From positions 1,364,001 to 1,428,000 of the forward strand of contig NW_025963990.1 in assembly GCF_023055435.1 (NCBI RefSeq): DNA of 64,000 nucleotides, written 5' to 3'. Source of the DNA: Haliotis rufescens (taxonomy: Eukaryota). The first letter of the stretch is position 1. Each line of letters opens with the position of its first letter. The notes beneath the pieces are model-generated. The model was not told the DNA's origin, searched no databases, and saw nothing but the letters and a program-made list of their open reading frames with translations. The translations under genes and the position numbers were made by a program. Below are positions 140 to 43,257 of the stretch, piece by piece.

Positions 140-1270
140 TGTTCATGGTCATGTCACATGAGGCCACAAGGTTGCGCTGAACTCGGGCAGCAATGACGGC
201 TCTACATCTCCTCGGCACTGGCTGGATAGGTGTATGAATTCTGTCCTGCGAAATTCTGCGCCATTCTGCTTGTAACGCGTTGGCCAGTTGTGGGAGTGTC
301 TGCGGCGTGTTCTGACATTGACATACACGTTAATCGAGTTCATCCCAGTGGTGTTTCGATTGGGTTGAGATCTGGAGATCTCGATGGCCAGGACAAGATG
401 TTGATGTTGGTATCATGAAGGTAGTATACCGTGACACGAGCTGTGTGCGATGGAGCGTTGTCCTGTTTAAACAGCTCCTCCTGGTGGTCATTGATTGGGA
501 GAGGGCTAACTTGAAGAATTTGATTCATGTAGCGATTTGCTGTCAAATTTCCCTGAACCACAACAAAGTCAGATCTCATGGTGTAGGATATGGACCCCCA
601 CACCATTAAACTACCGCCACCGAAATTGTCGAATTCACGTACACAAGGTGGGGCAAAACGCTCATTTCGACGACGATAAACACGTTGTCTTCCATCTCGC
701 CGCTGTGGAAGAATCGTGATTCGTCGCTAAACCACACTCGTCTCCAGTTTCTCAAATTCCAAGGCTGTACGGTATGGTAGCGTCGTTGTCGATGGATCGG
801 TTGCAAAACAGGGACGATAAATGGTCTTCTGGGTCGGATTCCGGCCTCGCGAAGATGGTTCCTGACAATCTGGTCCGATATCCTCCTCAAACCAGGGATG
901 CGTCCTGTAGTGTCCGTAGCTGTGGCATTGCGATGACGAAGGTGGAACAGTCGAATATAGCGATCCTGTGCAGGGGTGGTAACTCTCGGTCGGCCGGTTC
1001 TCGAACGGTCTACAGTGGAATTGAACCGTTTGTATCGGTCACAAAGGCGGCAAATGTTCCGATCGGCAGCGCTCAGTCTCGGCATTTTTCAACTTGAAAA
1101 ATGTTGACAATTAAATGACAAATTACTTGCTTATGCTTGCCTTTTTATAGCCACTACCACGAGTTACGAATGCCATAACTTCCACGTGCATTTTGCTTTG
1201 CTGTTTTCCTCCATGACATTTTTGAACAAGTGTGGCAAAATCGACAATGGCTGCGTTTTGATGCATTTAT
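140..1270 (-). mobile_element. Tc1-like transposon, degenerate
   Basis: MPRLS...RTGRPRVTT...VWFSDESRF; MVWGSI...FKQDNAPSH...WPSRSPDLNPIE split over frames; ends approximate. Confidence 0.85.
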
Positions 1271-5000: not shown

Positions 5001-8000
5001 AAGACTGAAAGTATTCCACAATTATCGTAAACGAGCCAAGGATGTAGGACATAATCTCAATGTCAATGTATCACTCTTCATCCTGGATTCCCTGAGTAGG
5101 CCCATCTCGGAAGCTTGACTGTCGCCGCTGGGTGAATATATTATGATCACTGTCGTTTGCTATCACCACTGTATTTTTCGTATTTGATTGGAGCCATTGG
5201 ATATTGTACTACCTCTCTGTTGTGTACCGCCATTGTACTGGCTATGCAGTAATTTGTATTTAATTGTAAACCTCGTGAATTTTGTAATACATGTGATGAA
5301 TGTATACAACTTGTTGTTTGTTTGTTGTTAATCTCAATGTCAGTGTTGATTTTGTTGAATGTGCAAGTGAAGTGCAATATCAAGTTTTTCAAGGAGAGGC
5401 TATCTGAACGACCACTGCATCGAATTTATGTGCAGTGTGTTGAGAAGGTCAGCAACCCGACAGAGTCCTTTGCTTCAATGAAATCGGCTGGCCTGAAAGA
5501 GAAACAGAAGGCTTTCTGTTTGTTGCTCAGGACCAGTCACTTCCCACTCGAAACCTTTAATGTGTGCATCAAAATGTAAATATGAAATGTAGATTATGTA
5601 ATAAATTTAATGAGACTGACCAACACATTGTCAGTTGATGCCGAGCTTTGGCACAAACACAGTATCTTAAGCGACATGATGGAGTGGCTCGATCTTTTTA
5701 TTACCGTCTTCGCCATGCAGAGGTCCACCGATGGTACGACCCGGAATATGTAGAGGACGTCATGGAAAATGATAAGTACAAAATTCTTTTGAATAGGGCC
5801 GTATACAGCCTCAAACGTATCCAGGCAAACAAACCTGATCTTATACTATTTGATAAATCCAATGAAATCATTTATATCATTGAATTGTCTGTACCTTTTG
5901 TCACTAATGTGATTGACAAGATTCAGGAAAAACATGGCAGATATGTGGACCTCGCTTTCGAAATGTCCCACTTGCATCCCAAGTTCCAAGTTGTTCGACT
6001 CCCTATTGTTCTCGGTGCCTTAGGTTTGGTACCTCCCAATCTGTCGACAGACATTGGGAGAGTACCCGACTTTGCTATCAGGTATATAGGCCTTCTGACA
6101 ATCTGGGTAATGCAGAAGGCTGCCGTGTTGGGGAGTCTTCACATTCTCCAAACATTTCTGGGTGGGTTCGACTGGGCAGTGCTTCCCATTCGCTGTCTGT
6201 GTTGCGTGTTGAGGGGGCAAGGGTCCTGAGCTGATGATGAGCCTAACCAGCCTGGCTGTTCAAGGATATCCCAAATCGTCTTTGCTACATTTTTTAATTT
6301 TAATCTGTAAATAATAATAACAGCAATAACAATAAGATTTATAAAGTACCTAACATCCATCAAAGTTGCTCAATGGCATTATTACAAAGAACAGAATATA
6401 CATATATACATACATACCTGAAAGAATTTTACTGATACACAGCGCTTAAAGTCTCATGGGTATATACAACGTTGCATATTTGGATAGAGTGTGACATGGT
6501 TAATGCAAATATCGTATTCAAAACATCGAAAGCGGCACTATTAGCACTTTTTTCCTGTCTATCAATTTGGAACATTGAAACGAAAATAGCTTAGGCGGAG
6601 CTTTCCATGTATGGTTTTGTTGGAGGAAATTACCTCCAAAAGTACATGCTCTATCGCACAACAAGCCCGACCCTCCGTTCGCACACTAGCACGGTCATGG
6701 TCAGCTGCACTCGTTCTCGGCAAAGCTGACCACTTCTTCACCCTTTTTATCCCTTTCCACAATTAGCAATGACCATTTGTACACTGTACTTTCCTTCGTA
6801 TAATTGCGATTAAAGGATTAAAAATACTCTTCTTTTAACAACGGAAATGTGACACAAGGACATTTATATTACATATGTAGGTCATTATTCGGTGAGAAGA
6901 CGATGAGCAAAACATGCATATGCTTTGTCTTCGAATGCGTTTATTATTTGCGTAGCGGTACTCATCTCATTTATTTTCCTGTAAGACTTTTCTTTGTATA
7001 CATATTACCTGCTCCGTGTATAAATACAATTATGAAGCATAGTACTGCTTCGTTTCTTTTTCACGATGTCGTGAGCTCAAATCAATGTCCCACATGTTTA
7101 CAGGCTATAAACAGTGAGGAATATTGAAAACCTTACCTCAGGTTGTTTAGGATATGTTTAATTTTATATAAATACTTTGAGAATTCAATAACAGTGAGAT
7201 GCCACGTTATTTCATCAATGTCCTTGTTATCTGCACCAAGAAAGAATGCTAACATATCATGGGCTTCCAACATCTCTATTTTAACATACATTTTAACATC
7301 AAAATTATCAATTAGAGTGGAAAAGAATACATCTCTCTCTGAAAGTAGAAATTCACAGTTTAAGATGACATGGTGATAATAATCATGAGCAAAAGTATTA
7401 CATTTTGTACATTCTTTAGATATTTTGCTTCTGGATCCAATAATATAATGTATTTCTTCTCTAATTTCGGTAAAAAAACATTACAATGCTGTATAACACA
7501 TGAGGAGTAAGTGTTGTGTGAATTTTAGAATATCGAATAGCTCTACATGTTCCTCGTGTGTAGTTATTTCATTTAACACAATCTTTCTCCACTTAGTCTT
7601 CGCGGGGATTTTCCCTGTGCCAACGTAGTGAAATACATAATGAAGAAAGTTATATTTCTTGGCTGTTGAAAGCAACACTCGACATATACTTTGTAAATTA
7701 TCGTTATGAAAGTTAAGAGTGAAGATGATGCGCAGAAAACAGTTTTACAAATTGAGACACATGAGTTGTTGCAGAGATGCCCCAGCAGCTGTAGTCTACA
7801 TTCATCTATATAGCCAACCATGCTCCAAAGTTCTAGATTAGCAAAAGTGGCATCAGTGGGGGAACGTTTGTCAAACCCTTGTACAATCCCGGGAAAGCAA
7901 CGCTGGGTGCTTTCAGCTAATTCAAGATAGTTGCCATGCAGAGGAGGTAGTAATTCATTTTCATAAAAAACTTTGTTGTTAAAATAATTCTTTTCCATAT

Positions 8001-11000
8001 CTTAATACTTGCATACTGATGTAAGTCACTACTATTTAGACAAACAGAGAGTAGGAATTAATAGTATGGCTTGCTTTTGTGCTGCTCTCTTCAATATATA
8101 ATTTGAAAGAACGATTATTTTGTAGAACAACACCCGCATATTTCACATTATCAAACAAAGGTGTCATAATCTCCAAAGTGATAAGCATGCGTACACAATG
8201 ATTGCTTCTTTTTATGAAACACAACAATTTTACTTGTTAATCGGCATTTGGATGCGTAATTAGCAACTGTATCTAAAGCTGTTTGTAGACATTTAGGGCT
8301 GTAACTGAGTAGTATCACAGCAAGTAATACGCATGGTAACCTAACATTATATATAACATATTCCTGTATCTAACTGCCGAAGCTCAGTTATGAGGTCATT
8401 ATGTACACAAGTTAAAGACATGCTGAAATAACTCTACCCTGACCTATACCTTGTCTTACAGCAAATACATCAGATTGCTCGCCCTTACACTGAACACGCG
8501 CATACATGGAAGTATAACAGTGATGTAACAGAGACCACATTTTACCTCTAATACCAAGATGATAGAGTTTTACGAAGAGACCCGAATGCCATATTTGATC
8601 AAAAGCTTTCTCGTTATCTGGAAATGCTGTGTTGATACATGATCCCCTGTTAACATAACTTTGTACATATTCAATGAGGGTAAATAGCGACATGACAGCA
8701 CCGTGCTCCTTCCTAAAGTCAAACTGCAAAATATCAGGAAAATTACAGGCATTTCGGGATGTCCACGTTTCTAATCCTCCTAGGAGAACGGATTGCTTCG
8801 TTTGTTCAGTTTATTTTCCCCAAAACACATTATCCTGTTGCAGCCTTGTAATATGACTACGTAGATTAATCGACATGTCAGAGACTCTGTGAATACATGT
8901 CATTTGGTGACGTGTTACATTATGCAATACACATGGCTAAGTGTTTTATGATACTGGGCCTGACTGCTGGCATACATTAGGTGAGACAAATACCATTCTG
9001 GGTAAATACCACTCATTGGCTACAAAATTAAATCGATATACACCAAAGGTCTTCCCAGGTGTAAAGTAACGATCCGGTATATTCTGTATCCGGCTGGTGG
9101 TAATACCCAATCACCTTAATGCGTATTTTTACAACAACGCTAAGTTTACGTTTTCCCTTTTTTTGTCTCGGCCATCGTATTGCACATCATACTAGCTACA
9201 TAATGTTGTAAGATAAATGTATTTTAATGAACTTGATAAGTTTTAAGGTGAGATTTAAATGTTTCTACTGAAGAAGTCATTCAGATTTCAGGACAGGAAA
9301 GAGGAAAAGCACGTGATTTTAGAAGTGTTGAACAAATTCATTGTGAGAGAAGGGCGTCAGATGATGGGCGGATTCTGCGGCTGGGTTTGTAAAGGTTGGC
9401 GAGTTGGTTTGTTTGTTGTTTAACGCCACACTCAGCAATATTCCAGCTATATGACGGCGGTCTGTAAATAATCGAGTCTGGACCAGAAAATTCAGTGATT
9501 AATATCATGAGCATCGATCCACGCAATTGGGATCGATGACATGCATCAACCAAGTCAGCGAGCCTGACAACCCGATCCCGTTAGTCGCCTTTTACGACAA
9601 GCATAGTCACCTTTTATGGCAAGTATGGGTTGCTGAAGACCTCTTCTACCCCGGCGTCTTCACAGGATTGTTGCTGGTAGGGGAATAGTACAACCACTGT
9701 TCATTTAAATAATGCCATTGTACTTACACTTCTACTTAATTTTGTACTGCCACTCCATTGTGTAAGGCCATTGTAACTGCTGTGCAGTAATTTGTATTGA
9801 TTTGTAAACCTAGTTAATTTGACGGTAAAATTTGTTAATTGTATTATATTCCTTGTTGTTTGTTCATTTCACACTTTTACATACAGACTTCTGGGTTAAC
9901 TTTTTGTTTCAATTTGGAAGTCGAGAACATGGTTCTTAACGTCAACAATGAGATGTAGTTCCAGGTGTTATTCGAGTTTATAACCTTCGTCCAAGAAGGT
10001 TGTTCAGTGGCAGAAAGAGCTTGTAAAGTCTACTAACTAATTGAATTTCACTGTCCACTCATACATTAAAATGTTAGAAAACTTTACGAATCAGTTAGTT
10101 TTCACTTTACGGTGGCCTAACGTCCGGAGCTGGAAACTGTTTAGTTGTAAACAATATAATAATAAACTTTATAATATCAGCTTTCTGTATGAGAGAAATA
10201 CTACTTGACATAAAGCAACAAAACATTGACGAACACAACGAATTTTAAACTTTGGTGGGATTCGAACCTGCAACCTCTTGATTAGTAGTCCGCCACGCTA
10301 CCACCTGTTACGCACAAGTGTCCATTTTTCTAGTCACCATTAACTTGGTTATTTGTACATTTTTATGTAAATATTGTACCAAGTTCGTTGTTAGTCCTGG
10401 TGGTATATGTGTTATGCATGTGTCCGTGAATCTTATTTGCACATCTAATTTCAATATATATGGTTGACAGTATTTGTACAGGATAGGAGGCAGTGTTTAT
10501 ACAGTGGAGAAGCCTGTAATGTTTTACCCTTCTGTGTAACTGCATCTTAGACCTACTCAACTGCCTCCTATCCTGCATATATACTTGTCAACCATATAAC
10601 CGTGTTAGAGCCTACACCGAAACGTCGCTCCTAATTGTAATAAAGAAGTTGTTCATCTATATATCTTATCCTTACTTAGTACTCCAACATCTAAATGCCT
10701 CTCAAAGAAGTTATGTTTAAAGGTTTTTAACTTCTAAACATGCTTGGATTATGGGGATGTTGTTTTTAGATGGTATTCAAGCTGTTAGGCGATAGCTCAT
10801 TTCATGTGTTTATACTCTTTACGTGTTTAGAAAGAACACTTCAAATGTGCACACTGTTTAGGATTGAAACTCACTCCTAAACATGGCTTGTATGTGTTTA
10901 CATTCTTATCACATTTTTTGCAGTGTGTTTTTTGTAGTGAATTATATTAATTTTATAAGTGGTATTTACTAATTTTCAGCATCTTCGTGCAATCAACCAG

Positions 11001-17000: not shown

Positions 17001-20000
17001 GACCATCTTATGAACCTACACATTGAAATCACCAGAAATGGACAAAACTGGCTATAGGGCAGTCATCAAGTACCTGCACCTGAAAGGGCTAACTCCAACA
17101 CAGATACATGCTGCCCTGGTCTGCACTTTAGGGGATGATGCCTCTTCTTTTTCCACCGTAAAGAAGTGGGCTGCGGAATTCAAGCGTGGCAGAGAGAGCC
17201 TTGACGATGACCCGCCTCCAGGAAGGCCTTCAACAGCAACCATTCCGGAAAACGTTACCCGGATGCATGACATGGTGATGGCTGATCGACGATTGACCAC
17301 TCGACATATTGCCAGTCTTGTGGGCATCTCTCATGAGAGGGTTGAGCACATTATCACCAACAAGTTGGGAATGACAAAAGTTTCTGCAAGATGGGTGCCA
17401 AAGCTTTTGACAGCGGTTCCGAAACGTGTCAGATTCCTGACGTCCCGTGACAATTTATGCCGTTTTGAAGCAGATCCCGATGATTTTTTAGCCCGATTTG
17501 TAACCATGGATGAGACCTGGATTCAACCAGAAACCAAAATTCAGTTAAACAATTGAGGCATCCGGAATCACCAGCCCCCCCCAAAAGCCAAGTTGGTTCC
17601 TTCTGCTTGAAAGGTGATGGCTTCAGTCTTTTGGGATTCCAAGGGTATTCTTCTGATTGACTATCTTGGAAAAGGCCAGACTATCAATGGAAGAGTGAGT
17701 GAGTGAGTGAGTGAGTTAGTGAGTGAGCATGGTTTTACGCCGCTTTTAGCAATATTCCAGCAATATCACGGCGTGGGACACAGGAAATGGGCTTCACACA
17801 TTGTACCCATGTCAGGAATCGAGCCCGGGTCTTCGGCGTGACGAGCGAACGCTTTAACCACTAGGCTACCCGACCGTCAATGGACCGTCAATTATATCAA
17901 TGGAAGATATAATGCTGACCTACTGAGACAGTTTCGTGAAGCTATCAAAGCTAAGCAACGGGGAATGCTCAATAAAGGAGTCCTATTCCACCAAAACAAT
18001 GCTCTTGTTCACAAATCGGGGGTTGCCATGTCAGCGATCCATGATTGTGCCTTTGAACTCATTGACCATCCCCCTTATTCACCCGATTTGGCCACGTCAG
18101 ACTTCCACCTGTTTCCAAAAATGAAAAAGGAACTAGCCGGTCGCCAATTTCCTAGTAATGATGACGTCATTTCAGCTGTGAATGACTTTTTTAGGGTGGC
18201 CGAAGAAAATTTCTTCTTGCCCGGCATCCACGCCTTGCAGCATCGCTGGCAAAAGTGTGTAAACCTGGAAGGGGACTACCTGTAGAAATAAATGAAAACC
18301 ATCGACTTGGTACGGATCTTTCACAGTAAGGCTTAGAGCTTTTCAGCCAGCCCTCGTACATGAGTTTTTATGTTGTGATTAATTATTAAATATGACCTCA
18401 GTGTTACCACAACTCAGCAGTATTACCTTCAAAGAAAACATGTGAATCGAAAACGTCTGATGCCATTGCAAATATGCAACATCAGCTACAGTACATCATT
18501 TCCTACCGAAAGATTATAGTGACGTGAAAATATTAAAAATATGACAAAATTAGGTTTCTTTGTGTTGGCGAAATTTACCCAACTATTTGTTAAGTTAAAA
18601 TGTTTCTTGTTAAATCACTAAAAGTTGCAATTTCAAGTTTTATTTTTGTTTATTCAACAGGACCAAAAGGGGTACACATTTTGATAATGACCCATATGCA
18701 GTACAGGATTACCTGTCTACTTTTCTTGGATCACTCCATTCTAATACTTAGGTAACACGGGGTAGACCAGCCAGTGCCTTCACCCATGACCTATGTTGTT
18801 TTAAGGTGTGTGACAAATGGGACGTGTAACTAATGGGAGGATACCAGAGGAGCTTATACACACTCGATGACCCCAGCAAGCGTGTTGCTAGGCTGACGTC
18901 ACATGGCATTGTTTCGCCGATGGATCTAGCAACAAAATTCCACAAATTACGTCAGCAGGTATTGTGACGTGATTGTAAACTTTGTGGTGCAGGGTCCCGT
19001 TCCACAAGGCGATCGTACTGTAGAGCAAAGACTGTAATAAGTCTATGTAGATGTTACGATAACCTTAGCGCTACGATAACTTTGTGGAACGGACGCGTGA
19101 ATTCTAAAGGTGGGCCGTTGAATATTATTAAATTAATACGTTTCAACTTTGAAGTATTACCCTTTTAAACTCAATTGGATTATGCCGTGGATCGTGTAGG
19201 TGTCAGCCTATTTACACATGACAGTATAATTCTAAAAACGTTATATATGTCAAGCAATAAATAAAATAAATAATAAATAAAATACTAAACTCGCTCCCGT
19301 GTAAAACCAACTTTATTGGAACTCGTGAATAGTTGGGGTATTTGACCCGCTTTAGCTTGTCAGATACCACAACTATTGACTCGTTTCATAAAATTGGTAT
19401 TAAAAACATTTTCATAATCACATGACATTTCTACTAAAAGTTTGTTGTACAGTTCCGACAGTATCATGAGCTTGTAGTTATTAATCACTATCAAATAGTG
19501 ATGATATCAGGTGTTCTAAAAAATATGTGTATCCTTCAAAGGCAAGTCAATTGTTTCGCCTGAGAAAACACGGGAACGTATGGTTCAAATCAAACCCAAG
19601 AGACGAACACTCAACCTTATCTGGCAGCTCCTCCAGTGATTGCCTGAAACCATTTATCATGTTAGCAAACGAGAAGTCTCCTCTGACGATACTAAAAAAC
19701 AGGTCCAGACTTTTGCCTAGAGCGCCAGCAGCACCACCTTTAACAGCATCGTAGATCTCAACCAGTCTCTTGAGGTTGTCCACGCCGTACTCCTGCAACA
19801 GGGAAATGTAGAAGTGCACAATTTAAAGTAAACCCTAAAAAGATATCTTTGCAAATCACATAATTACATGAATAAGACATATTCTCTTTTAAACATGTTG
19901 TCAGATTTAATTTGATCTGATATTATCCTTGTCGGCATTTTGACTATGAATTGTCTTCCCATCACACTGTAGGGCACCAGACCTCTTGACTAATAATGCA

Positions 20001-23000
20001 ACTGAGCATATACATATAATAATGATTCAAACTAGAACAGGACGCTAGACATTGAAAACATTATGGGTAAACTCTTCAAATGGTAAACACAAGAGAGAGA
20101 ATTTCTATATGATGAAGAACACCGCGTTTCGCTGTATATGCTTACTCCTTCATTAGGTGAATGAATACTAGGACTCAACGAGCATATAATATGTACACAT
20201 GAAGATAAAAGTAATAAGATAGTAAAGGTGGAAAGGTTAACGAACGAAGTCAGCAGTTAATTAGCGCCCATTGGTGATTAGAAATGGACAAATGGAAGTC
20301 AGGAGTTCAATTAGAATTGTATAATAAGCTATGGTCAATTAGAGGCAGGGGTTAAGTACACTGATTTGTAATTAGCAATGGACAAATGAAAGCCAGCTGG
20401 ATGAATAAGAGTAGTTGGTAGCCCCGTTCTGGAACCGCTCCAGGCTTCTGATTGGGCGGTTTCTGTGATGACGTCACTTCCGGTTTCGGTTTTGTCACGT
20501 GCCTGCGCATGCGCGAAGGTGGCATTGTGGGTCATGTGCGCGCATCCAAGATGGCGACACTTCCGTTTCAGGTGGCGCGTGCCTCCAAGATGGCGGCATT
20601 TCCGTTTCTGGGAGGCGTGCCCACATCCAAGATGGCGGCACGTCCGTTTCCGAGGGGCCATCTCCCCATCCAAGATGGCGACACGGCGTCTCCAAGATGG
20701 TGGGAGGAGGGAGGGCGGGATGACGGGTAGGCGGGAGGAGGGAGGAGGTTTTTTTGTTTTTTTTTCGGTTTGATGGGTGTGTGGGTGGGTGGGTGGTTGT
20801 GGTGGTGGAGAGGGTAGTCAAGGCAATGGATGAAAGCGTTCTTTTGGGAGAGATGGGTGGCCCTGAAAAGGGACGTTTTGTAGAAGAAGTAGATTACTTC
20901 TTCTCCCACAAAGGGGCTGTTCTACAAAGGCAGGGATGGCCTGCCACCTGTCTCCTGACAGGACACTTACTGGTGTGGCATAGTCGCCGCACGTAGGTGT
21001 CCTTCAGGACAGTGTTCCAATAGATGCACTGAAATGTGCCATCGTGTTCCCTTGTGCCATGCGCATAGACTGGCAGGCACCCTTTGTACTTATTGCATTG
21101 CCATGGAGGAATGTGTTCCAAGTCCCAGCGGCAGTCTTTGCACAGTGTCAAAGGGTGCGCAACTGAAACCAGATCCAAATCCCAATTTTCTTCATTAGTT
21201 TGCATGATGATGACGATCTCATGGAATGCAGTGTGAGTGGCTTCGCTCTTGTTTTACAGAAAAGGGACTGACACCCTGCTTCCTGATTGGTCCAACACGC
21301 AGCGCACCGATTGGTTCCTTCCGGTGCCTGGTCTGAGTCTCAGTTTTCAAAACTGGACCGACCCTTGTGTCTCTTTTTCATAGGAAATGGATTTTACCAT
21401 GGGAGAGAAAGCACAACTCGGCTCGGGTGCTGTCTTTTGATTGGTCGGTGCTGTCTTCTGATTAGTCGAAAACCCAAGCCTCTGATTGGTCAGGTTTCGA
21501 TCCTGTTTTGGGGAAGGTTTGTCTATAAATCAGACGTTCAGTCAATCTTATAGTGCAGACGTTCATCAGGCACTCATCGCCATTATGACGAGCAAGCAGA
21601 ATGATACGTACCATTTGCAGAGGAAAGACACAACTCGACCCAGATGGTTAAGAACCATACGTATCGTTTGACATTCAACCCAGACTACTTGGAAACCGTA
21701 CCCCCGGACCGCGTCCCCATTGAACTGCCGTCTTTATTTGACAGGGTGATCGATGACTGTTATCAACAGATGTCAGGCCAGAAGCGGGATCGTACTTGTC
21801 AAGATATCGACCACCCCGCTGTGAACACTCCCATACGGATTCCCTTTCGGCGCTTTGAAGATCTTCATTGCCTAGATATCTTGCATGCTGTGGAAAAAGT
21901 CCAACAGTCCAACAATGCCACCATGGTTGTGACTTCAGTACACGTAGCAGATCCCGACAGGCTAGGATCAACGACAACGTAGACGACGATCCTGATGGAG
22001 AAGCTCAACTCACTTCCATGCAGCGTGAATGTAGTGCCTATCGCCACAACAATAAGCTGTAACAGTGGTCAAGTGATGTGTCATCTCTGTTTCAGGGAGG
22101 CCATAGACTGTACCTATTTTACTGATGAGGCGTCCCAAACATGTTTGGAACCTATTTGGGTCAATATGATGAAGGACCATATCTTATGGTGACCCCATCT
22201 TCACTCGAAGAGGCTGAACATGAAAGAGGAAAGGTTTCGCGTTGTTGTAGGGACATGCAAAGCACTCCCTCCTCAGTTGTCTTTTCGCATTTCCTATGTA
22301 TCTGGTTGTTCTTGTTGTTCATTATTAAACATTGATTGATTGAACTGACTCTTTGTGTCTTGATTGGTCTCGAATTCAATAGGGTGCTGAACCGAGGGTA
22401 GAGGCTGAGTTGAGTTTGTCAAGTTTGTGCACATGCTTGTTGAAAAAGTAAAGAATTAAAAGATAGATAAAATAGATAAAAGAGAAAGGACATGCTTGAA
22501 AGATCAGCTGCCTGGTGTCAGTCATCCCAGTACTTCACATATGACGTCAAGTGGTGATAATGATAATGATGAAGAGGTCATTTCCTCCCCGTCCCCTGTC
22601 TGTCATGTCTGTGCACATGTTCGTTGTAAAAGTTAAGAAAAAAATATAGAAAAAAATAGATAAAAGAGAAAGGCCATGCTTGAAAGATCAGTTGCCTAGT
22701 GTCAGTCACCTAGAACACAGGATAGAGTCTTATCACATCGTCAGTGACACGCAAGATTTCATGGAGTCCACATCGTGTTCAGACTGTTGTAAGACATTTT
22801 CTAGAAGAGATGTCTTACTTCGTCATAAAAAACACGTCCATGGCTTATCACCAACACTATCACCTATGAGACCAGAGACATCACCGTCGCCTCCGCCGCT
22901 GCCGCGGTGTATGGGGAAAAGACGGTGTATGAATGCCATGCCACCATCAGGGATGTCCCGATACCGAGTGGGTTTCTGAAAAGGCGAGAGAAGAAGGACG

Positions 23001-26000
23001 AGGTGACCGTGTTATCTGTTATTGCTGCGGTGTGACACTCTGCCAATGGAAAGCCACAGACAAACCCTGGAAGGAACATCTGAAGCACGCCAAAGTCCCC
23101 TGCGAATACTTGTGTGTGTTTTGTCCTGATGGAGAAGTGAACGAAAAATACAGACGTTTGTTGTCTGAAGAAGCACAGAAGAGAAGAGTGGAGTGTCTTG
23201 TTCACTCCTAGTGACAAAGTTTCCTGTTCACTACGTTTTTAGGAATGTACAGACGTACAAACCCTAGTGGCTTATCACCTAGTGTTCACAAAAAATCACA
23301 GGTACGCCCCTAATCCTGTGACTTTTGTTTTGTTCTGTTGGTTCACGTGAGCGGGGGATTAAACAGTTGAACAAACATAAGTGTTGTGTTGTCTTTTTTT
23401 TTAGGATGAAGAAAAATAACAAAATAGGATCGAAATGCACACCCAAGAAAAAAAAGGATCGAAGTCTGACCAAACAGTGACCGAGCTCATATCGTGCTGG
23501 GCTCTGATTGGTCGAACTGAGGTTGTGCTTTCTCTCCCATGGTAAAATCCATTTCCTATGGAAAAGAAACACAAGGGTCGGTCCGTTTTGGAAAACCGAG
23601 GTGCAGACCAGGCGCCGGAACGAACCAATCGGTGCGCTGCGTGTTGAACCAATCAGGAAGCAGGGTGTCAGTCCCTTTTCTATAAAACAACAGCGAACCC
23701 ACACACTGTATTCAATGAAATCAACTATGTCGTCTCGACACAGCTGCATGAAGTGTCAGACCGACAGTCACAGTTACCTGTACTGCCCTGAAGTGACATG
23801 TACCGAGTGCCACACTCAAGGTCACCGCCACTATGTCTGTCCGAGGATAAGCAGTCAAGATAAGCAGAAAACTCCCCAGGGGCCATGTCAAAACTGTCAA
23901 GTCGTGGGTCATTTCGCTGCAGATTGTCCAGAATCCAGTCGAAAGAAGACTTCCCAGGGCCCATGTTACAACTGCCAAGTCGTGGGTCATTTCACTGCAG
24001 ATTGCCCAGAGCCCAGTCGAAAGAAAACTTCAGCAGCGCCGTCCATGTCGACACCGGTGACACCAGTGACACAAGTGATACAAGTGCTTCATCTCATAGA
24101 AGTCATGCATATCGATGTCCGTGCCCTAAAAGAATGCATCGCACATCTCCACGCGGGCATCACACCTCGTCTAGGGAAAAGAAAACGGGACAGAAGCCCC
24201 TCAAGAAAGCACCCTTCAAAGCGCCAACGACGTCATCAGTCTGAGGAGGAGGAGGAGATGGAGGATGAAGGAGATAGATAATCTGAGCAAAGTGACTAAC
24301 GAATGGGACCTGCTGCTCCACTGTTTTTCCAGTTTCCAATCGTTTCCAGTTTCCAGTTTTTCCAGTGTTCCTACATTTTCCTGCTGTTTCCAGTTTCCAG
24401 TTTGTTTTCCAACGGCCCTTTTTAGGGCCACCAATCACTCCCGAAAGAACGCTTTCATCCATTGCTTTGACTACCCTCTCCACCACCAACCCCACGCATG
24501 ACCCACAATGCCCCCTTCGCGCATGCGCGGTCACGTGACGAAACCGAAACCGGAAGTGACGTAATCACAGAAACCGACCAATCAGAAGCCAGGAGCGGCT
24601 ACCAACTACTAATGAGCCTTGAGGGATAGATGGTGGCACAGATTAATTAATCGATTCCCAAGTCCCAAGTTCTAGGTTCCCTGGTCACGGTTCATGGCTG
24701 GCAAGTATCACCCGATATCAATGGCGTCTTGTAGTTTCATTTGACGTCAGTTGTTGTTGGTGTTGGATAGGACTTTGGTAGCTTTCCACATGATGGTATG
24801 GTCTTGGTTCTGATGAGGGCCCTGGTAGGGTGTGGTGATTCTGAATAAGTGATTGAGTATGGTGTTACAGTGCTAGAAATAGTCTTCACACATTTTACTC
24901 ATGTGGGGAATCGAACGTCGGCTGCGAGCGAACACTTTAACCACTGGGCTACCCCCACCGTTTGCGTCTTGATTTGGAGTTCTTGGGGGAGAAGGGTAAC
25001 TGTTGAAGGGAGTGAAGGGTTTCTTGAGAGCATCAGGATGGCAAACAGATTTAGCACGTCGGGTGAGGCTGGCGATGATAGCTTGTTTTATCTTGGGATG
25101 GTGGCAAGAGTTGAAGTGGATGTACTGGTCTATGTGTGTGTGTCGTCGTGCGGTACACTGATGTTCTTAGGCCATCATCTGTGGTTTGGAGGTACACGTC
25201 TAGGAAGGGAAGTTGTTGATTACTTTCGGTCTTCATGGTGAACTGGACTCTCTGGTGTTGGGTGTTGAGATGTTTGAGGCGCTCTGTCAGTCGTTTGGTG
25301 GGCTATGGAGGTGAATATGTCATAACATACCAGCAGAGGGGATTTACTTTGTTCTTCTTAATAAAGAAGTTCTATTAATGCTCTCTCTTATGTAGGAAAG
25401 ATAAAAGGTACACGTTACATGTACATGTTCACAGGATGTGGGTAATTCACTACATGTACTCGTTATCCTGGTTTACCATAAACGTACAAATTGTGGTATT
25501 CCTAAATTGCAGTGTGAAGTCAAGAGGAATAGTTTAAAGTGAGAAGACTTAGGATGATTTTAACAGTTTGGGAGCATTTGAGATATGCCATTTGAGATGT
25601 GCCTGTGGCATTTGAGATGTACCATATCTTAAATGCCACAGACAAAAGCTGTTTTTTAACTTTTAACTGATCAGACTAGATCACACAGAAGTGCGATTTA
25701 TCAGGCTGCTTTGTCAAGTCACCTGCAGCATGTTAAGGTTGTAAGCAGCCCCTCCCTTGAAGCAGATCCTCGCCGAAAAGAAATCCTGGTTGATGCCCAT
25801 GAAGCCAAGGTGGATGCGGGCGTATGCTTCATCGTGGATGTTCACTCGCATGTGTCCACTCAGAGGCGCTGTAACATGCAGTGATCATATGCAGTATATG
25901 TGGATGAAAATCATTTGTTCCATGATTTGGAGGAACATGAAATACACGAAATGTTTCAAACTGTCCTTATGTGGAGAGATAGATAATTTGAAAACTCGGA

Positions 26001-29000
26001 GATCCCATAACTTCATTTCCAAGAAACACTTCAAACGAAATGATTTAGTTTGTGTTCAGATTGATTTGGATTGCATTAACACTAATTCCATGTTTGGTTA
26101 TTCGGCCAACGTTTTCAAATGTCAACCTAACATTACAATTAATGATGTCTAATAATCTGCAATGTAGTCTGAATCACGTAAACAATAATAAATACTTATT
26201 AGCGATTTTATTTTAAACAATGTTGACACAAAATAACGGTGAAAACATGAATGTCATTGACACGAGCATACCTATTTTGAAGTCTAAAGCATTGTTCATG
26301 GTCAGTCCAAAGGACACTCCAATGGTTGTTGACCCAAGCATCTTCTTCCAGTCTACGCTGGGTGATGGCAGTTTGAACTCGATCTTCTCATCAAAGAATC
26401 CCCTTTTGTGTCGGTCGTGTACGTCAATGTCCCGCCGGCCAACATAGCGAGGGTCCACGTGAAAGAAAGATCCATTTATGGCTCTGAAATGTATGTATAC
26501 ACATGCTCAAAAGTTAAGCGCGACCATATTCATAGTCTCTTTATTTCACGTGTGGGAATCAGAAATACGAAATATGATGATGTATGACTGAATGAGGCTT
26601 CCATAGTTTCTTGAACCCAAATTTGTCCAGATACCACAAGGAAAGCATGCTTTACGTGTTGCTGCAGTTCCCCTACCCTATAGCGAAATTCAAGTTTCAG
26701 ACACGTGGTTGCATTTTGCTCCTGTGTGAGATTCCCCTTCCAATAGAGGTTGAAAATCAGCCATGGTGAGGAGAAAGTTAACGAACGCTGAAAGATGGCA
26801 AGTGATAGGCATGAAAAATGCTGGCATGTCATGCAGGGCTATTGCAAGACAAATGGGTCGTCATCACAGTGTTATCACTCGTTTGATTGTCAAACATGGT
26901 CAAACCAATGATGTCAATGACAGGCATAGGTCTGGTAGGCCAAGAAAGACCTCTAACAGAGAGGATAGATGTCTTTTCAGGATAGTCAGACGGAATCGTC
27001 TGATATGGTGTCGTGCCCGTAGTCGATGGAACTTGGCGAACTGGAGAAGGATCCATTGCTCTGACGAGTGTCGAATGCTGCTACGAACTGTTGATGGTCG
27101 AATACGTGTTTGGAGGCAATGTTACACTCGTTTTGCACCAAGAAACATCAAGAAGACCTTAGCATGTGGCGGGGGGTCTGTCATGATATGGGGTTGTGTT
27201 TCCTTCGGCTGCAAAATTCCGCTGGTGACAATTCGTGGAAACGTGAATGGCCAACAATACCACGATGCCGTTCTTCGTCCAGTGGTAGTCCCTCATTTTG
27301 ACAACCATCCTCTTTAGACAAGACCTGTTTATATGGACGACAATGCTAGACCACACAGATCTCGGGGAGTTTTCGCTTATTTGCGTCAAGAAGCTATTGC
27401 CACTCTTTCTTGGCCGGCCTGTAGTCCGGATCTTTATCTGATTGAGCATCTCTGGGACATTCTTGGCCGGAAAATCAGACATCGTGATCCCCCAGTTCAA
27501 AATCTCGCTGGACTTGAAGCCGCACTTCATGGAGAATGGATCCGTTTGCCTCAGAGAAGCATTCAACGACTTGTAATGAGTATGAGGCGTAGGCCTGAGG
27601 CTGTGGTCAATGTCCGTGGATCATACACACGTTACTGACGTTTCTGTCTTGCAATAGACTCTGCACTCCTCAGGGTGTCTATGTGACACCCGATATGGTC
27701 TGCTGATATCATTCAATGTTTTCTAATCCTTCAATTTCTGGTCTTCGGTAAAATTCCTTTTTGCTCATATTCTTTTGGAACACAAGATAAACTTGCTTTG
27801 GGACAACTTTTGCATCACATGAGGTTTACATATACGGCTTGTAACAATCGTACATCTCGTTATAATAGTCATCATTAAGTGCCAAAAGTAACAGCTCACA
27901 AATATGGTGGGTGGCGCTAAACTTTTGTGCATGTGTATATATGTCAGGTTTAACATCGTGTTGAACAATTTTTCAGGTGCGTATAATCACATCGTTACAA
28001 ACTACATCATCGCCCCACTGAAGTACTGGTCAACGTGCAATCCATATATGCTGGTACAAGAGGTCAACGGGAATGAGTTGTTTAACACATAAATGTTTTC
28101 AACATGTACCCTTCTTTTCTGTACATGGGAGCGATTATTGCGGCCTTTGGGTGGGCCTGGTATTGTAGCAGAGCTTCATATCGGACCTCCTCGTCGTCAT
28201 CGTACAGGGCTGTCTTCAACATCAGATGTGCTGCCTGCAACAGGGGATATATCAACCATACATACATGCTGTCTTCAACATCAGATGTGCTGCCTGCAAA
28301 AGGTGATATATCATTCATACATGCATAACTGCCTTCAACATCAGACGTGCTACCTACAACAGGGAATACAGCATGCAGACATACAGGCTGTCTCTAACAT
28401 TACATGTGCTGCCTGCAACAGGGAATATATCATGCATACATAGAGGCTGTCTTCAACATCAGATGTGCTGCCTACAACAGGGAATATATCATGCATACAT
28501 ACAGGCTGTCTTCAACATCAGATGGGCTGCCTGCAAAAGGTGATATATCATTCATACATGCATAACTGCCTTCAACATCAGACGTGCTACCTACAACAGG
28601 GAATACAGCATGCAGACATACAGACCGTCTTCAACATTAGCTGTGCTGACTGCAACAGGGGATATATCATTAATACATGCATTACTGTCTTCAACATCAG
28701 CTGTGCTGCCTGCAACATGTGATTTATCATTAAGACATGCATAACTGTCTTCAACATCAGATGTGCTGCCTCAACAGGGGATATATCATTAATACATGCA
28801 TTACTGTCTTCAACATCAGATGTGCTGCCTGCAACAGGGAATACAGCATGCAGACATACAGGCTGTCTCTAACATTACATGTGCTGCCTGCAACAGGGAA
28901 TATATCATGCATACATAGAGGCTGTCTTCAACATCAGATGTGCTGCCTACAACAGGGAGTATATCATGCATACATACAGGCTGTCTTCAACATCAGATGT

Positions 29001-32000
29001 GCTGCCTGCAAAAGGTGATATATCATTCATACATGCATAACTGCCTTCAACATCAGACGTGCTACCTACAACAGGGAATACAGCATGCAGACATACAGAC
29101 CGTCTTCAACATCAGCTGTGCTGACTGCAACAGGGGATATATCATTAATACATGCATTACTGTCTTCAACATCAGCTGTGCTGCCTGCAACATGTGATTT
29201 ATCATTGAGACATGCATAACTGTCTTCAACATCAGATGTGCTGCCTCAACAGGGGATATATCATTAATACATGCATGACGGTCTTCAACATCAGATGTGC
29301 TGCCTGCAACAGGGGGTATATCATTAATACATGCATAACTGTCTTCAAAATCAGATGTGCTGCCTGCAACAGGGGACATATCATTCATACATACATAATC
29401 GTCTTCAGCATCAGATGTGCTGCCTGCAACAGGGGATATATCATTCATACATACAGGCTGTCTTCAACATCAGATGTGCTGCCTGCAACAGGGGATATAT
29501 CATTAATACATGCATAACTGTCTTCAACATCAGATGTGCTGCCTGCAACAGGGGATATATCGTTAATACATGCATAACTGTCTTCAACATCAGCTGTGCT
29601 GCCTGCAACATGTGATTTATCATTCAGACATGCAGACTGTCTTCAACATTAGCTGTACTGCCTGCAACAGGGTATATGTCATTCATACATAGAGGCTGTC
29701 TTCGACGTCAGATGTGCTGCCTCAACAGGGGATATATCATTAATACATGCATAACTGTCTTCAACATCAGCTGTACTGCCTGCAACAGGGGATATATCAT
29801 TCATACATAGAGGCTGTCTTCAACGTCAGATGTGCTGCCTGCAACAGGGGATATATTGTTAATACATGCATAACTGTCTTGAACGTCAGATATGCTGCCT
29901 GCAACAGGGGGTATATCGTTAATACATGCATAACTGTCTTCAACATCAGCTGTGCTGCCTGCAACATGTGATTTATCATTCAGACATGCAGACTGTCTTC
30001 AGCATTAGCTGTACTGCCTGCAACAGGGGATATATCATTCATACATACAGGCTGTCTTCAACATCAGATATGCTGTCTGCAACAGGTGATATATCATTCA
30101 TACACGCATAACCGTCTTTATCATCAGATATGCTGCCTGCTATATCATTAATACATGCACAACTGTCTTCAACATCAGTTGTGCTACCTGCAACAGAGGG
30201 TATATCATTAATATATCTATGTCTTTTACATCTTTAACATCAATGTACTATCAACACCACGAAACATATAATTCATACAAACATGACTGTCCTCAACATC
30301 AAATTTGATAAATACAACAGGGGATATATTCTTTGCATTTATTATGCCTCAATGTGAGATTGACCAATCAGGGAGAAGCACTACAAACCCCATTTGAGCC
30401 CGTATACCGTCAGTAAAAATCCAAGATGGTTGTTATTGACCTAATATGAGACCGTATACCGTCAGAAACAGCCTGTTTGAATTTTCCAACACCAACCTCA
30501 CATATTTCACATATTTCATTTATTCTGGCACGGAAATTCGTTATTTGACACTATTTTGTGTTTTAATATCATTAATTGTGATGTGCAGTAACGTTATTAT
30601 TAAAAAATATAGAGAAAAAAACTTACAATGGAGATCACTGAGTTACAAATAGCAACGTCATAGAACTTATTATACGATGACGTCACAAACAAGAAACGTG
30701 ACGCAAGTTACGTCACATAGAAATAGAATATAGACAGCAGCCGGTCGTTAGGGAAAAGCGGACTGCTATCAAGTTACAATGGCCCGCAGATTTCTGATAA
30801 CATTCGGGCAATGTTTTGAATTCTATCCACTTTAGCTATTATTCTTGTTTGAACGTTCAGATTCAGTGCATTATATATTCCATTGATAACGTTTGTGATT
30901 ACATTAAAACATTAAATCGGAAACATATGTATTGGTCCTGTCGTTTATACCGGATGTCCCTGTCAAGTTTTCAGTTTGACATGACTATTGAGATACCAAA
31001 TAGTGTAAACCTTTCGGCATCATAAATTCGTTATGGTGTCTTTAGTTGCCGTAAACGGTGTCAAATTAGGTTAGCAGAAATATATTGGGCGAGGTCGTCC
31101 TTTACATTGCTGAGACACTTCACATCCTCGTCTTGATTCCACCAGTTTGTTTTCATAATACTTCATGCATTAAAATATTCGCGTCTGTTATTATTGTCTT
31201 ATACAATATTGTGATACACCGAATCCTAAGATCCATCATCAATCAGATTTTAAATGTTGAAGGAGTACAACTGGGAATTGTCATTGTCAAAAAATATGTT
31301 CAAATTTTCCTATTTGAGCTGCTTCTATATGACCACGGAACTTTCTTATCGCCTTGTAGTACGCAAGATACTTACATGTTTAGTTTAAGTAAAAAAGATA
31401 CTCAACATTCTGTAGTAAACAGAACCAAATGTATAAAACATTTAAATCATTTATTGAAATACCCAATCTTTAAAAATTAAAAGTTGTTGACAAATCGTTT
31501 TCAATACCCCTTCGTGTCGGTACTTCCTCATGGCGTGAATCCCCGCTCGCTTCACCCACTGAGAGTTGGTGGTGTTGACATGTGACACAATCATCTCAAA
31601 TGATTGGTCGAGACCGGCATTACCCAGAGATCCAAGCAAGATAACTCTCCAGCGGTCGTCATCAAGGACTTCACGCTCTGTCATGGTTGACCGTTTCTGA
31701 CGGAACAGCCAGGGATCTGGAACAAGTAATTCTCACCTGGATCATGAACATGAACTCTGTGAGTTAGTGATTGTGGTCAGCAAGCGGCAGAAATACTCAA
31801 GCTATGCCACAGTCTACAAAGAATCGAGTTACTCACAGGCAAACCAATGACTAAGATAAACAACGGCCCCCAGCATAGGGAACAATGTACGAACAATCGT
31901 GCGTGACCACTGAATTCTCTCGACATTCAGGTGGTACTGGATACCTATGTTTACCCGGAAACCCTTTGGTGTGCACATTGGGAAGTTCTTTGTCTGCACT

Positions 32001-41000: not shown

Positions 41001-43257
41001 ATGGCGGCGGCTCCCTTCTTCATGGCAACAGCTTCATCGTCGTCGTCGGGAGGGTGGTAGACGCGGAGAATCTCGCCATGGGGCGTGATCACAAACGAGA
41101 ACCTGCGAGATACAGTTTCAATGTAGACATGAAGATCTGATATATGTCATGGTCAAGCCTGACACATCTTGAAGACATGAGTTTTCGGGAACTGTAAAAA
41201 TATTATTTGCGATTGTTTGCATTTATCCTGTCTTCTTTAAGACGTTGTCTCACCTTCACGAAAGGTAGGAATTACAACGTCCTTCCCCAGACTGGAGGTG
41301 ACGCTACACCGCGCAGGATTGCTTTACCACGATGATAGCTGTAAACCTTATGATGCAGTATAAACTCACTTTATCACTCCCTCCCTCCCTCATTCACCCA
41401 TTGCCATACTCTTGCTTTCTAGACACGATAAACACCTTGGATATATATTACATTTCCGTCAAAGCCCAATACATTTCTACTTCAGATCACTCCTGCAATG
41501 AATATGGGCGATCATATATTAACACGTTTACACGCTTTTTGTATTGTCTTTTACCATTTTGAGAAGTCCAAACGGTGGTCGATGGTGTCTGAAAAGAAAC
41601 AAGAAAAAAAACTGTTTATACAGTAGATTGCGGATATTCTGTAACACGACAAGAAAGGCAGTATAAACCTTAAGGAGAAGCTAATGCTTCGAGACAACCG
41701 TGTTCGAGATATATGTTTGGTTAGCAGCTGAATCATTCGGCTTCCCCTTTCACAGCAACAAACTGAATCATTCGACTGCCACTAACACAGCAACAAACTG
41801 AATCATTCGACTCCCCCTTACATAGCAACAAAGTGAATCGTTCGGCTTCCCCTTTCACAGCAACAAACAATACAACCTGTATTGTATATTGTCTGTCAAA
41901 TATTGTGTATCAAATAACTAATGTTACGTGCCATGTATATTCGGCAACGCCTATCTGAGGCATTCCGTGTTCTGTCATCCATGTATCCCCAGACTGTAGC
42001 AGCGTCTTGGGGCTTGAGTAACATTCCCTTCACTATACATAGCCAATAATAAAGACACACATGTCTTCCTGGTTGATGTTAAATTACAACAAAGTGAATC
42101 GTTCGGCTTCCCCTTTCACAGCAACAAACTGAATCATTCGACTGCCACTTACACAGCAACAAACTGAACCATTCGGCTCCCCCTTACATAGCAACAAAGT
42201 GAATCGTTCGGATTCCCCTTTCACAGCAACAAACTGAATCATTCAACTGCCACTTACACAGCAACAAACTGAATCATTCGTCTCCCTCTTACATAGCAAC
42301 AAAGTGAATCGTTCGGCTTCCCCTTTCACAGCAACAAACTGAATCGTTCGTCTGCCACTTACGCAGCAACAAATTGGATCGTTCAGTTCACCCTTACAAA
42401 GCAACAAAGTGAATCGTTCGGCTTCCCCTTTAACAGCAACAAAGTAAATCGTTCGTCTGCCTCTTACACAGCAACAAATTGAATCGTTCAGTTCACCCTT
42501 ACAAAGCAACAATGTGAATCGTTCGGCTTCCCCTTTCACAGCAACAAAGTAAATTGTTCGTCTGCCACTTACACAGCAACAAATTGAATCGTTCAGTTCA
42601 CCCTTACAAAGCAACAAATTGAATAGTTCAGTTCACCCTTAAAAGCAACAAAGTGAATTGTTCGGCTTCCCCTTTCACAGCAACAAATTGGATCGTTCAG
42701 TTCACCCTACCAAGCACCAAAGTGAATCGTTTGGCTTCCCCTTTCACAGCAACAAATTGAATCGTTCGTCTGCCACTTACAAAGTAACAAATTGAATCGT
42801 TCGTCTGCCACTTACGCAGCAACACAGTGAATGGTTCGGCTTCCCCTTTCACAGCAACAAAGTGAATCATTCGGCTGCCACTTACAAAGTAACAAATTGA
42901 TGGTTCGGCTGCCCCTTTCCTGGTTTACATTAACTTTGGTGAATAGCCCCAGACTTTCATCAGACTGTACCTATGTCTTGCCTGCGTTTAACCGTATTGG
43001 CGAGTGGGGATAGTATTAGTAGCAGCAGCAGCAGCAGCAAAAGCAGCAGCAGTAGTAGTAGTAGTAGTAGAAGTAGTAGTAGAAGTAGTAGTAGTGGTGG
43101 TGGTGGTATTAGTATAAGTATTAGTATTAGTAGCAGTAGTAGTAGTAGTAGCAGCAACAGAAATACCAATAGTAGTAGTGGTGGTAGTAGTATTGGTATT
43201 AGAAGTAGGTATTAGTAGTAGCAACAGTAGGAGTTGTAGCAGCAGTAGAAGAAGTAA

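What the first reader, a model, noticed from the sequence alone, without database searches (positions are those of the whole stretch)
20410..24610. Miniature Polinton/Maverick-type element that carries accessory cargo genes but no core machinery
Seen: AGTAGT...ACTACT termini, long TIRs, a 6-bp flank duplication with one mismatch (aataag/aatgag), and at least four compact intronless ORFs in 4.2 kb. Established: Polintons have AG...CT ends with short tandem repeats, 6-bp TSDs and are usually 15-20 kb, with integrase, pPolB, ATPase, protease and capsid genes. Inference: this element has none of those cores but has an organised, symmetric gene layout, so it may be a satellite-like family mobilised in trans by a helper Polinton or virus rather than a random deletion product.
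Basis: partly seen in the sequence, partly recalled or inferred. Interest (0 to 1): 0.88.

Follow-up and report, generated by a model that had tools for sequence, protein, structure and literature searches.

The report
Deleted abalone Polinton with histone-type stem-loops
This is most likely a decaying, centrally deleted copy of a known virus-like jumping gene (a Polinton) from an abalone, but its two end genes finish in the hairpin signal that animals normally use for histone messenger RNAs, which suggests that the element borrows the host's DNA-replication-timed gene control.

Summary
The 4,201-bp element is real: AGTAGT//ACTACT ends, a 5-of-6 target duplication and inverted arms 81-94% alike. 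It does not lack core machinery. [quoted passage not shown] All four identifiable genes carry lesions: the BIR gene lacks 74 residues and half its domain, the left gene has lost two family-invariant cysteine motifs, and the zinc-knuckle gene stops six codons early. Ends plus accessory regions plus a polymerase stub is what a central deletion of a full-length Polinton leaves, so a decaying relic is the best reading. A trans-mobilised mini-family is not excluded, because copy number could not be tested. A Haliotis rufescens gene model carries the same segment. My searches found no report of this in Polintons. Use of the signal in RNA is not shown.

The parts
20404..20409 (.). Left copy of the 6-bp target-site duplication (AATAAG)
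   Evidence: 5 of 6 match with 24611-24616, P = 0.0054
20410..20536 (+). Left terminal inverted repeat, outer part, starting (AGT)2; holds CCAAT, TGACGTCA, CCGGAAG, CACGTG and GCGCATGCGC motifs
   Evidence: 107 of 114 identical to 24497-24610; motif positions; their reading as transcription-factor sites is recalled
20537..20789 (+). Left-only array of five CCAAGATGG units (spacing 39, 42, 43, 22) and a G/T-rich tract
   Evidence: matched by residues 1-34 of H. cracherodii pPolB gene model P0004 (56%, E 3.7e-4 against the window)
20790..20879 (-). Left arm segment with a histone-type 3' stem-loop (stem starts at 20874; one stem pair does not form) and a purine run 14 nt downstream
   Evidence: Rfam RF00032 26.4 bits, below the gathering score of 34, E 3.5e-4
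20894..21205 (-). Left terminal gene, 103 aa, small Cys-rich family of unknown function; two family-invariant cysteine motifs are lost
   Evidence: 5 hits; 4 of the 5 are full family members (P0011, a MATH-repeat protein, was dropped); both motifs present in 4 of 4 homologues and absent here
21215..21530 (.). Left inner repeat: divergent promoter-like region with CCAAT boxes, facing the left gene and pPolB (TATAAA at 21524)
   Evidence: promoter function is inferred
21585..21982 (+). pPolB 5' fragment, residues 1-138, probably the terminal-protein domain; frameshift near 21650-21660, a 5-residue gap, homology ends at 21976, stop at 21980-21982
   Evidence: domain assignment inferred from PMC11161782 sections 6 and 8 and motif positions
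21977..22760 (.). Unassigned 784 bp with ATTAAA at 22324 and a 111-bp direct duplication (22414-22524 / 22598-22708)
   Evidence: no credible match in six-frame Pfam and pairwise tests; duplication
22761..23211 (+). C2H2-like finger ORF (22761-22979) overlapping a BIR/IAP gene remnant (22933-23211); frameshifted, and 74 residues are missing at the 22995/22996 junction, leaving half of the BIR domain
   Evidence: Pfam BIR E 8.8e-9 on profile positions 32-69 of 70; C2H2 E 0.02, below cut-off; H. rufescens P0015 87% identical with a full BIR
23450..23722 (+). Right inner repeat: promoter-like region (CCAAT at 23625 and 23649, TATAAA at 23681) ahead of the zinc-knuckle gene
23715..24281 (+). Right terminal gene, 188 aa, four CCHC knuckles, an LxCxE motif and a basic/acidic tail; stops six codons before the end seen in homologues P0005 and P0008
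   Evidence: Pfam zf-CCHC E 1.6e-10; 5 Haliotis homologues at 63-69%
24409..24498 (+). Right arm segment with a canonical histone 3' stem-loop (24414-24429) and a purine run 14 nt downstream
   Evidence: Rfam RF00032 36.7 bits, above the gathering score of 34; the only such match in the window; folds as a 6-bp stem with a 4-nt loop, z = -4.2
24497..24610 (-). Right terminal inverted repeat, outer part, ending (ACT)2
24611..24616 (.). Right copy of the target-site duplication (AATGAG)

Best explanation
The element is an internally deleted, decaying copy of an abalone (Haliotis) Polinton. A full-length parent with (AGT)2//(ACT)2 ends gave rise to an insertion with a 6-bp duplication. The core block, from early in pPolB through integrase, ATPase, protease and capsid genes, was lost, leaving both ends, both accessory regions and a 392-bp polymerase stub. 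The copy then gathered smaller deletions, frameshifts and substitutions. It cannot replicate or integrate by itself. Shown: ends, stub, lesions, dispersed homologues. Inferred: the parent's full structure, the deletion event and its timing. The parent's two end genes were expression cassettes of one design: a shared CCAAT/TATA promoter repeat, an intronless ORF, and a histone-type stem-loop with a downstream purine element inside the terminal repeat. These most likely gave non-polyadenylated, S-phase-favoured mRNAs through SLBP and U7 snRNP (signal shown; use inferred, about 0.5).
For: pPolB stub: 4 of 52 candidates hit, all H. cracherodii PF03175 proteins of 759-1277 aa; residues 1-138 map to 21585-21976 and no further polymerase segment is credible in the element. 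P0004 links the left repeat array to pPolB on the same strand. Lesions in 4 of 4 identifiable genes. Arm identity 81-94% with gaps, and an imperfect target duplication. [quoted passage not shown] IAP homologues and LxCxE/CXXC 'Oncoid' genes are known accessory genes (PMC8502044 section 8). Stem-loop evidence: and P0007.
Against: No full-length parent DNA was seen; collinearity rests on gene models of other Haliotis species. Both ends and the duplication survive, as a trans-mobilised element would need. The right cassette is almost intact (4 of 4 knuckles, TATAAA, canonical stem-loop). The polymerase break falls close to a predicted domain boundary with a stop three codons later. 784 bp are unassigned. 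Polintons lacking polB are reported to stay mobile in butterflies (10.1101/2025.02.07.637071, passages).
Confidence: 0.7

Rival explanations
1. The element is an old member of a non-autonomous mini-Polinton family. The deletion happened once, and the short form was then copied and integrated by a helper's pPolB and integrase, like a defective-interfering genome. It may have been kept for its accessory genes or for a stand-alone terminal-protein gene.
For: Both ends and the target duplication are kept. Homology to pPolB ends at residue 136-138, before the vOTU-like Cys169/His278 motifs, where PMC11161782 places the terminal-protein cleavage. A stop follows three codons later. Zinc-knuckle homologues lie on five contigs of different lengths. 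polB-less polintons appear mobile elsewhere.
Against: One copy in 64 kb. All four genes are damaged and the arms have diverged. The homologues may sit in full-length copies; their context was not seen. The boundary coincidence was noticed after the fact, and the fold of the stub was too poor to confirm the domain (pLDDT 43, no Foldseek match at E <= 0.001).
Confidence: 0.22
2. The histone-like stem-loop is not used for RNA 3' processing. It is a fragment captured from a host histone gene, or a DNA-level hairpin of the terminal repeat, that is carried along passively.
For: The left copy has a non-pairing stem position and does not fold as the canonical hairpin (z = -0.18). The right copy is 132 nt from the stop, beyond the 22-67 nt of human histone genes (10.1101/720235). 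The purine run can fold into a small hairpin of its own. The two copies are not independent. There are no RNA data.
Against: The match covers loop and flanks, not only the stem (36.7 bits). Both copies lie in sense directly after an ORF, with a purine run at +14 and no AATAAA or ATTAAA before the element end. The segment is kept downstream of the homologous gene in H. rufescens (P0007). A relaxed pattern hit 2 sites in the window, both here, against 1 hit in 30 shuffled windows.
Confidence: 0.45
3. The element is an ordinary cut-and-paste or foldback transposon that picked up Polinton and host gene fragments.
For: Nested inverted repeats and fragmentary genes are typical of cargo-carrying non-autonomous DNA transposons (general knowledge).
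Against: The (AGT)2//(ACT)2 ends with a 6-bp duplication are the commonest Maverick end motif. The pPolB stub keeps its start codon and upstream promoter-like region, and P0004 ties the left end to pPolB.
Confidence: 0.05

Closest known systems
Polinton/Maverick (adintovirus-type) elements; vertebrate Mavericks of Barreat and Katzourakis (PMC8097293; passages and section 7 read)
   Same: (AGT)2//(ACT)2 ends, 6-bp duplication, terminal repeats in the 46-1,447 bp range, pPolB pointing inward, accessory genes at both ends; defective copies are the majority.
   Different: 4.2 kb against 12.7-24.6 kb; only 11-13% of pPolB is left; no integrase, ATPase, protease or capsid gene found.
Haliotis pPolB-encoding elements (P0001-P0004); mollusc pPolB2 Polintons of Jeong et al. 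(10.1101/2023.08.22.554363 and PMC10748475; passages and one supplement passage read)
   Same: 69-80% identity over the stub; P0004 shares the left repeat array. H. rufescens is listed among mollusc pPolB2 sources.
   Different: The region that would place the parent in pPolB2 is deleted here; that membership was not tested.
Polinton remnants in C. elegans (PMC11414722, passages) and polB-less polintons in Pieris (10.1101/2025.02.07.637071, passages)
   Same: Partial copies that keep terminal repeats and pPolB-end sequence; loss of core genes.
   Different: The C. elegans remnants are from the pPolB end; the Pieris forms come from a set of variants of 12 kb or more and appear mobile. No histone stem-loop was mentioned in the passages seen, and I did not search these two papers for it.
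Adintovirus accessory genes: IAP homologues and 'Oncoid' LxCxE/CXXC genes (PMC8502044, section 8 read)
   Same: BIR gene; LxCxE in the zinc-knuckle gene and in 5 of 5 homologues.
   Different: The LxCxE gene sits at the far end rather than upstream of pPolB; its cysteine doubles as a knuckle ligand; the motif arises in 286 of 10,000 shuffles.
Replication-dependent histone mRNA 3' end (RF00032 stem-loop, HDE, SLBP, U7 snRNP; PMC10730174 and 10.1101/720235, passages)
   Same: 6-bp stem, 4-nt loop, consensus flanks, downstream purine run, intronless ORF, no poly(A) signal.
   Different: It follows non-histone genes and lies inside a mobile element's terminal repeat; no histone coding sequence was found in the element (Pfam).

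Membership tests
Polinton/Maverick (autonomous) | (AGT)2//(ACT)2 or similar short-repeat termini | tested here: met
   motif defined in PMC8097293 section 7
Polinton/Maverick (autonomous) | 6-bp target-site duplication | tested here: met
   5 of 6 identical, P = 0.0054; the empty site was not seen
Polinton/Maverick (autonomous) | Terminal inverted repeats of tens to about 1,500 bp | tested here: met
   107 of 114 and 78 of 90 identical, interrupted on the left
Polinton/Maverick (autonomous) | Intact protein-primed DNA polymerase B | tested here: not met
   only residues 1-138, frameshifted
Polinton/Maverick (autonomous) | Integrase, packaging ATPase, protease, capsid genes | tested here: not met
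   no such Pfam match in 12 of the 25 listed ORFs or in all six frames of 21960-23500; only 784 bp of the interior are unassigned
Polinton/Maverick (autonomous) | Length of about 13-25 kb | tested here: not met
   4,201 bp
Non-autonomous, trans-mobilised mini-family | Many copies sharing the same internal junctions, each with its own duplication | not testable with these tools
   no eukaryotic genome collection was available; 1 copy in the window
Non-autonomous, trans-mobilised mini-family | A helper with the same ends exists | tested here: inconclusive
   gene models P0004 (left end plus pPolB) and P0007 (knuckle gene plus right arm) in congeners; no DNA seen
Non-autonomous, trans-mobilised mini-family | Signs of recent movement (near-identical arms, perfect duplication) | tested here: not met
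   arms 81-94% identical with gaps; duplication 5 of 6
Histone-type 3' end (RF00032) | Canonical stem-loop above the Rfam gathering score | tested here: met
   right arm 36.7 bits against 34; left arm 26.4 bits, below it
Histone-type 3' end (RF00032) | Purine-rich downstream element about 16 nt after the stem-loop that pairs with U7 snRNA | tested here: inconclusive
   purine run of 7 at +14 on both arms; pairing with abalone U7 was not tested
Histone-type 3' end (RF00032) | Lies shortly after the stop codon of an intronless gene with no poly(A) signal | tested here: inconclusive
   19 nt (left) and 132 nt (right) against 22-67 nt in human genes; no AATAAA or ATTAAA downstream on either side
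Histone-type 3' end (RF00032) | Transcript cleaved after the stem-loop, SLBP-bound, S-phase enriched | not testable with these tools
   no RNA data
Adintovirus 'Oncoid' gene | LxCxE with a nearby CK2 site and paired CXXC, typically upstream of PolB | tested here: inconclusive
   LxCxE in 6 of 6 sequences, CK2-like site in 4 of 6, chance rate 286 of 10,000; position does not fit
Mollusc pPolB2 (VSR) Polintons | pPolB2 clade placement and VSR insertion | not tested
   no tree was built; the region is absent from this copy

The most novel reading that the evidence does not exclude
This abalone Polinton lineage has built the replication-dependent histone 3'-end signal into its terminal repeat, so that whichever accessory gene sits at either end is made as a non-polyadenylated, SLBP/U7-processed mRNA favoured in S phase. 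That would be a virus-like element hijacking the histone mRNA pathway for non-histone genes, here a putative Rb-binding zinc-knuckle protein and an unknown Cys-rich protein. A bolder and less likely extension (about 0.1) is that the 4.2-kb form was a helper-dependent satellite that kept a stand-alone terminal-protein gene.
Probability: 0.45. Interest if true: 0.8.

Novelty: new variant of a known kind. Interest (0 to 1): 0.55.

Why it matters
As a deleted Polinton copy the locus is ordinary, since most such copies are defective. The histone-type signal is what matters. Stem-loop and U7 processing is described as unique to replication-dependent histone mRNAs (PMC10730174, abstract and passages). 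A self-synthesising DNA element that used it would tie its accessory genes to the cell-cycle phase with DNA precursors and a replication-competent nucleus. Little is known of how Polinton genes are expressed, and this gives a direct test: scan Polinton ends for RF00032, and map the 3' ends of their RNAs. Poly(A)-selected RNA-seq would miss such transcripts.

Tried and rejected
Other copies in the window: none (blastn; tblastn with four pPolB proteins). Further polymerase, BIR or knuckle pieces in five unassigned stretches: of 20 pairings tested against 60 shuffles each, one had 0 of 60 shuffles reaching it (22402 frame against P0015, a stop-interrupted Cys/Lys-rich match) and one had 1 of 60; I treat both as compositional. 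Homology between the left and right ORFs: none (E 65; DNA score reached by 24 of 200 shuffles), so they are not diverged copies of one gene. Folds: pPolB stub pLDDT 43 with no Foldseek match at E <= 0.001; left-family homologue P0012 pLDDT 47, not searched further. The left ORF had no match in Pfam, NCBIfam or PDB sequences. GTDB scan with the knuckle protein: 0 of 116 pattern matches confirmed. Cluster membership and Atlas look-ups gave no result, so copy counts and a family name for the left gene stay open. Viral and metagenome contig collections were not searched. Kapitonov and Jurka 2006 was not held; my recollection that non-autonomous Polintons were named there or in Repbase is unchecked. 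The Rfam miRNA matches are far below their gathering scores and were set aside. Flank continuity: no Pfam match in three minus-strand frames of either flank, so the empty site could not be confirmed.
Full report
Observation. The boundaries are as stated. The element runs 20410-24610 (4,201 bp), begins AGTAGT, ends ACTACT and sits between AATAAG and AATGAG; such a flank match has P = 0.0054. There is one copy in the window. The terminal repeat is in pieces: 107 of 114 identical at the tips, 78 of 90 further in, and about 250 nt on the left with no partner. An inner inverted repeat (183 of 201, and 26 of 32) lies about 0.8 kb from the left end and 0.9 kb from the right end. All 10 named homologues found in three searches are from Haliotis (4 of 52, 5 of 263 and 1 of 16 candidates), so the host is inferred to be an abalone.

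A core gene is present. The ORF at 21644-21982 is 77-80% identical to four H. cracherodii proteins of 759-1277 aa with the DNA_pol_B_2 domain. tblastn places residues 1-138 at 21585-21976, starting at the homologous ATG, with a frameshift near 21650-21660 and a 5-residue gap. No further polymerase segment is credible inside the element, apart from a low-complexity basic/acidic stretch shared with the knuckle gene's tail. In polinton pPolBs the N-terminal domain is the terminal protein, followed by a vOTU protease (PMC11161782, sections 6 and 8 read). The vOTU-like cysteine and histidine motifs, which I picked by eye, are at residues 169 and 278 of P0001-P0003. The stub therefore probably covers the terminal protein only. 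The fold could not confirm this (pLDDT 43).

Links to longer relatives. Gene model P0004 begins with 34 residues that match the left-end repeat array (56%, E 3.7e-4) and continues into pPolB on the same strand. Gene model P0007 (H. rufescens) is a knuckle-gene homologue whose last exon matches the right arm at 24400-24444 (13 of 15 residues). Both are annotation artefacts that record the DNA order in other copies. They show the same ends beside the same genes, but I saw no DNA of those loci.

The genes are damaged. The BIR ORF matches only positions 32-69 of the 70-position Pfam model. Against H. rufescens P0015, which has a full BIR, residues 31-104 are missing at 22995/22996, and the N-terminal part of P0015 appears spread over different frames. 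The left ORF belongs to a small Cys-rich family (5 hits; 4 kept after dropping a MATH-repeat protein), and two cysteine motifs present in 4 of 4 homologues are absent here. The knuckle ORF keeps 4 of 4 knuckles but stops six codons before P0005 and P0008 end. One homologue, P0009, is itself frameshifted relative to the window, so decayed copies occur in other genomes too.

Why it looks symmetric. Most intact vertebrate Mavericks have two accessory regions flanking core modules that point inward, the commonest ends are (AGT)2//(ACT)2, and 96% of copies are defective (PMC8097293, passages and section 7). Removing the centre leaves ends, accessory genes and a polymerase stub. IAP homologues and LxCxE/CXXC genes are known accessory classes (PMC8502044 section 8). 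The knuckle protein has LxCxE in 6 of 6 sequences, with a chance rate of 286 in 10,000 shuffles; this is a lead only. I put a decaying deletion relic at 0.7 and an old member of a trans-mobilised mini-family at 0.22. For the second reading: both ends survive, the break is near a domain boundary with a stop three codons later, and polB-less polintons appear mobile in butterflies (10.1101/2025.02.07.637071, passages). Copy number, the deciding test, could not be run.

Rfam finds the histone 3' UTR stem-loop at 24409-24455 (+; 36.7 bits, gathering score 34) and at 20833-20879 (-; 26.4 bits). The right one is the only histone match at gathering level in the window and folds as a 6-bp stem with a 4-nt loop (z = -4.2, 0 of 200 shuffles). 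A relaxed pattern hits these two sites only, against 1 hit in 30 shuffled windows. Each lies in sense after an outward-pointing ORF (19 nt left, 132 nt right), each has a purine run at +14, and neither side has AATAAA or ATTAAA before the element end. The inner genes do have ATTAAA downstream (22324, 23358). The inner repeat supplies both end genes with the same two CCAAT boxes and TATA-like box, while the two ORFs are unrelated. The ends are thus two cassettes with shared 5' and 3' signals and different coding sequence. The P0007 exon reads through the same stem-loop segment, so the signal is a family trait, although this is inferred from protein letters.

Against function. The left stem has a non-pairing position and does not fold canonically. 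The right spacing exceeds the 22-67 nt of human histone genes, where the downstream element has its mode at 16 nt (10.1101/720235, passages). The purine run can form its own small hairpin. The two copies are not independent, U7 pairing was not tested, and there are no RNA data. I put use in RNA processing at about 0.5.

Literature check. 'histone stem-loop' with 'polinton' gave 0 papers. None of the 25 listed of 216 papers held 'histone stem-loop', and none of the 40 listed of 279 held 'SLBP'. In PMC8502044 'stem-loop' occurs 0 times and 'histone' once, in another sense; 'histone' is absent from PMC4028283 and PMC11131425 (term searches of the main text only). The library lacks most subscription papers and Repbase Reports, and supplements of these papers and of bioRxiv preprints were not seen (only that of PMC10748475). 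The claim is 'not found in these searches'. PMC3014272 and PMC6431247 were read as passages; the first notes an apparent absence of non-autonomous Polintons in the anole.

Verdict. The locus is a Polinton derivative, not an autonomous member, and most likely dead. The interest lies in the histone-type 3' signal in the terminal repeat. Interest 0.55; new variant of a known kind.

Noticed in passing
window 21585-21982: pPolB homology ends just before the vOTU-like domain and a stop follows three codons later, so the stub spans roughly the terminal-protein domain alone.
   Followed up: partly
window 24156-24270: The basic/acidic tail of the zinc-knuckle protein resembles residues 538-585 of the H. 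cracherodii pPolB proteins (E 5e-6 without composition correction; 0.02 with it against the window); a shared localisation module or low-complexity chance.
   Followed up: partly
window 20894-21205 (-): Small Cys-rich protein family with four homologues at 40-53% identity and no Pfam, NCBIfam or PDB name. One homologue, P0014, also has 15 residues resembling a translation of the inner promoter repeat (E 0.025).
   Followed up: partly
window 20537-20700: Five CCAAGATGG units, a YY1-like motif (recalled), against 2 in the other 59.8 kb; absent from the right arm.
   Followed up: partly
window 21977-22760: Unassigned stretch with short ORFs, ATTAAA at 22324 and a 111-bp duplication.
   Followed up: partly
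window 24611-25300 (-) and 20117-20178: The right flank translates to reverse-transcriptase-like motifs of a Penelope-type retroelement (recalled; no Pfam match). The left flank has a short repeat, also at 1372-1436, that looks hammerhead-like by eye but had no Rfam match. The Polinton may have inserted into such an element.
   Followed up: partly
window 24875-24954, 17784-17871, 61388-61480: Short dispersed repeat, probably a tRNA-derived SINE.
   Followed up: no
window 340-1088, 17014-18285, 26754-27317, 49932-51142: ORFs that read like Tc1/mariner transposase remnants (family recalled, not tested).
   Followed up: no
window 5383-6344 and 60325-61303; 8412-8810; 44892-45401: Non-LTR retrotransposon-like remnants, one pair 84% identical (family recalled).
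   Followed up: no
window 28210-30213, 42087-42917, 45728-47449: Long tandem arrays (59-bp, 35-bp and 6-bp units), the last with assembly gaps.
   Followed up: no
window 44214-63364: A patchwork of long direct repeats, up to 1,764 bp at 96% (51178-52941 / 55523-57263).
   Followed up: no
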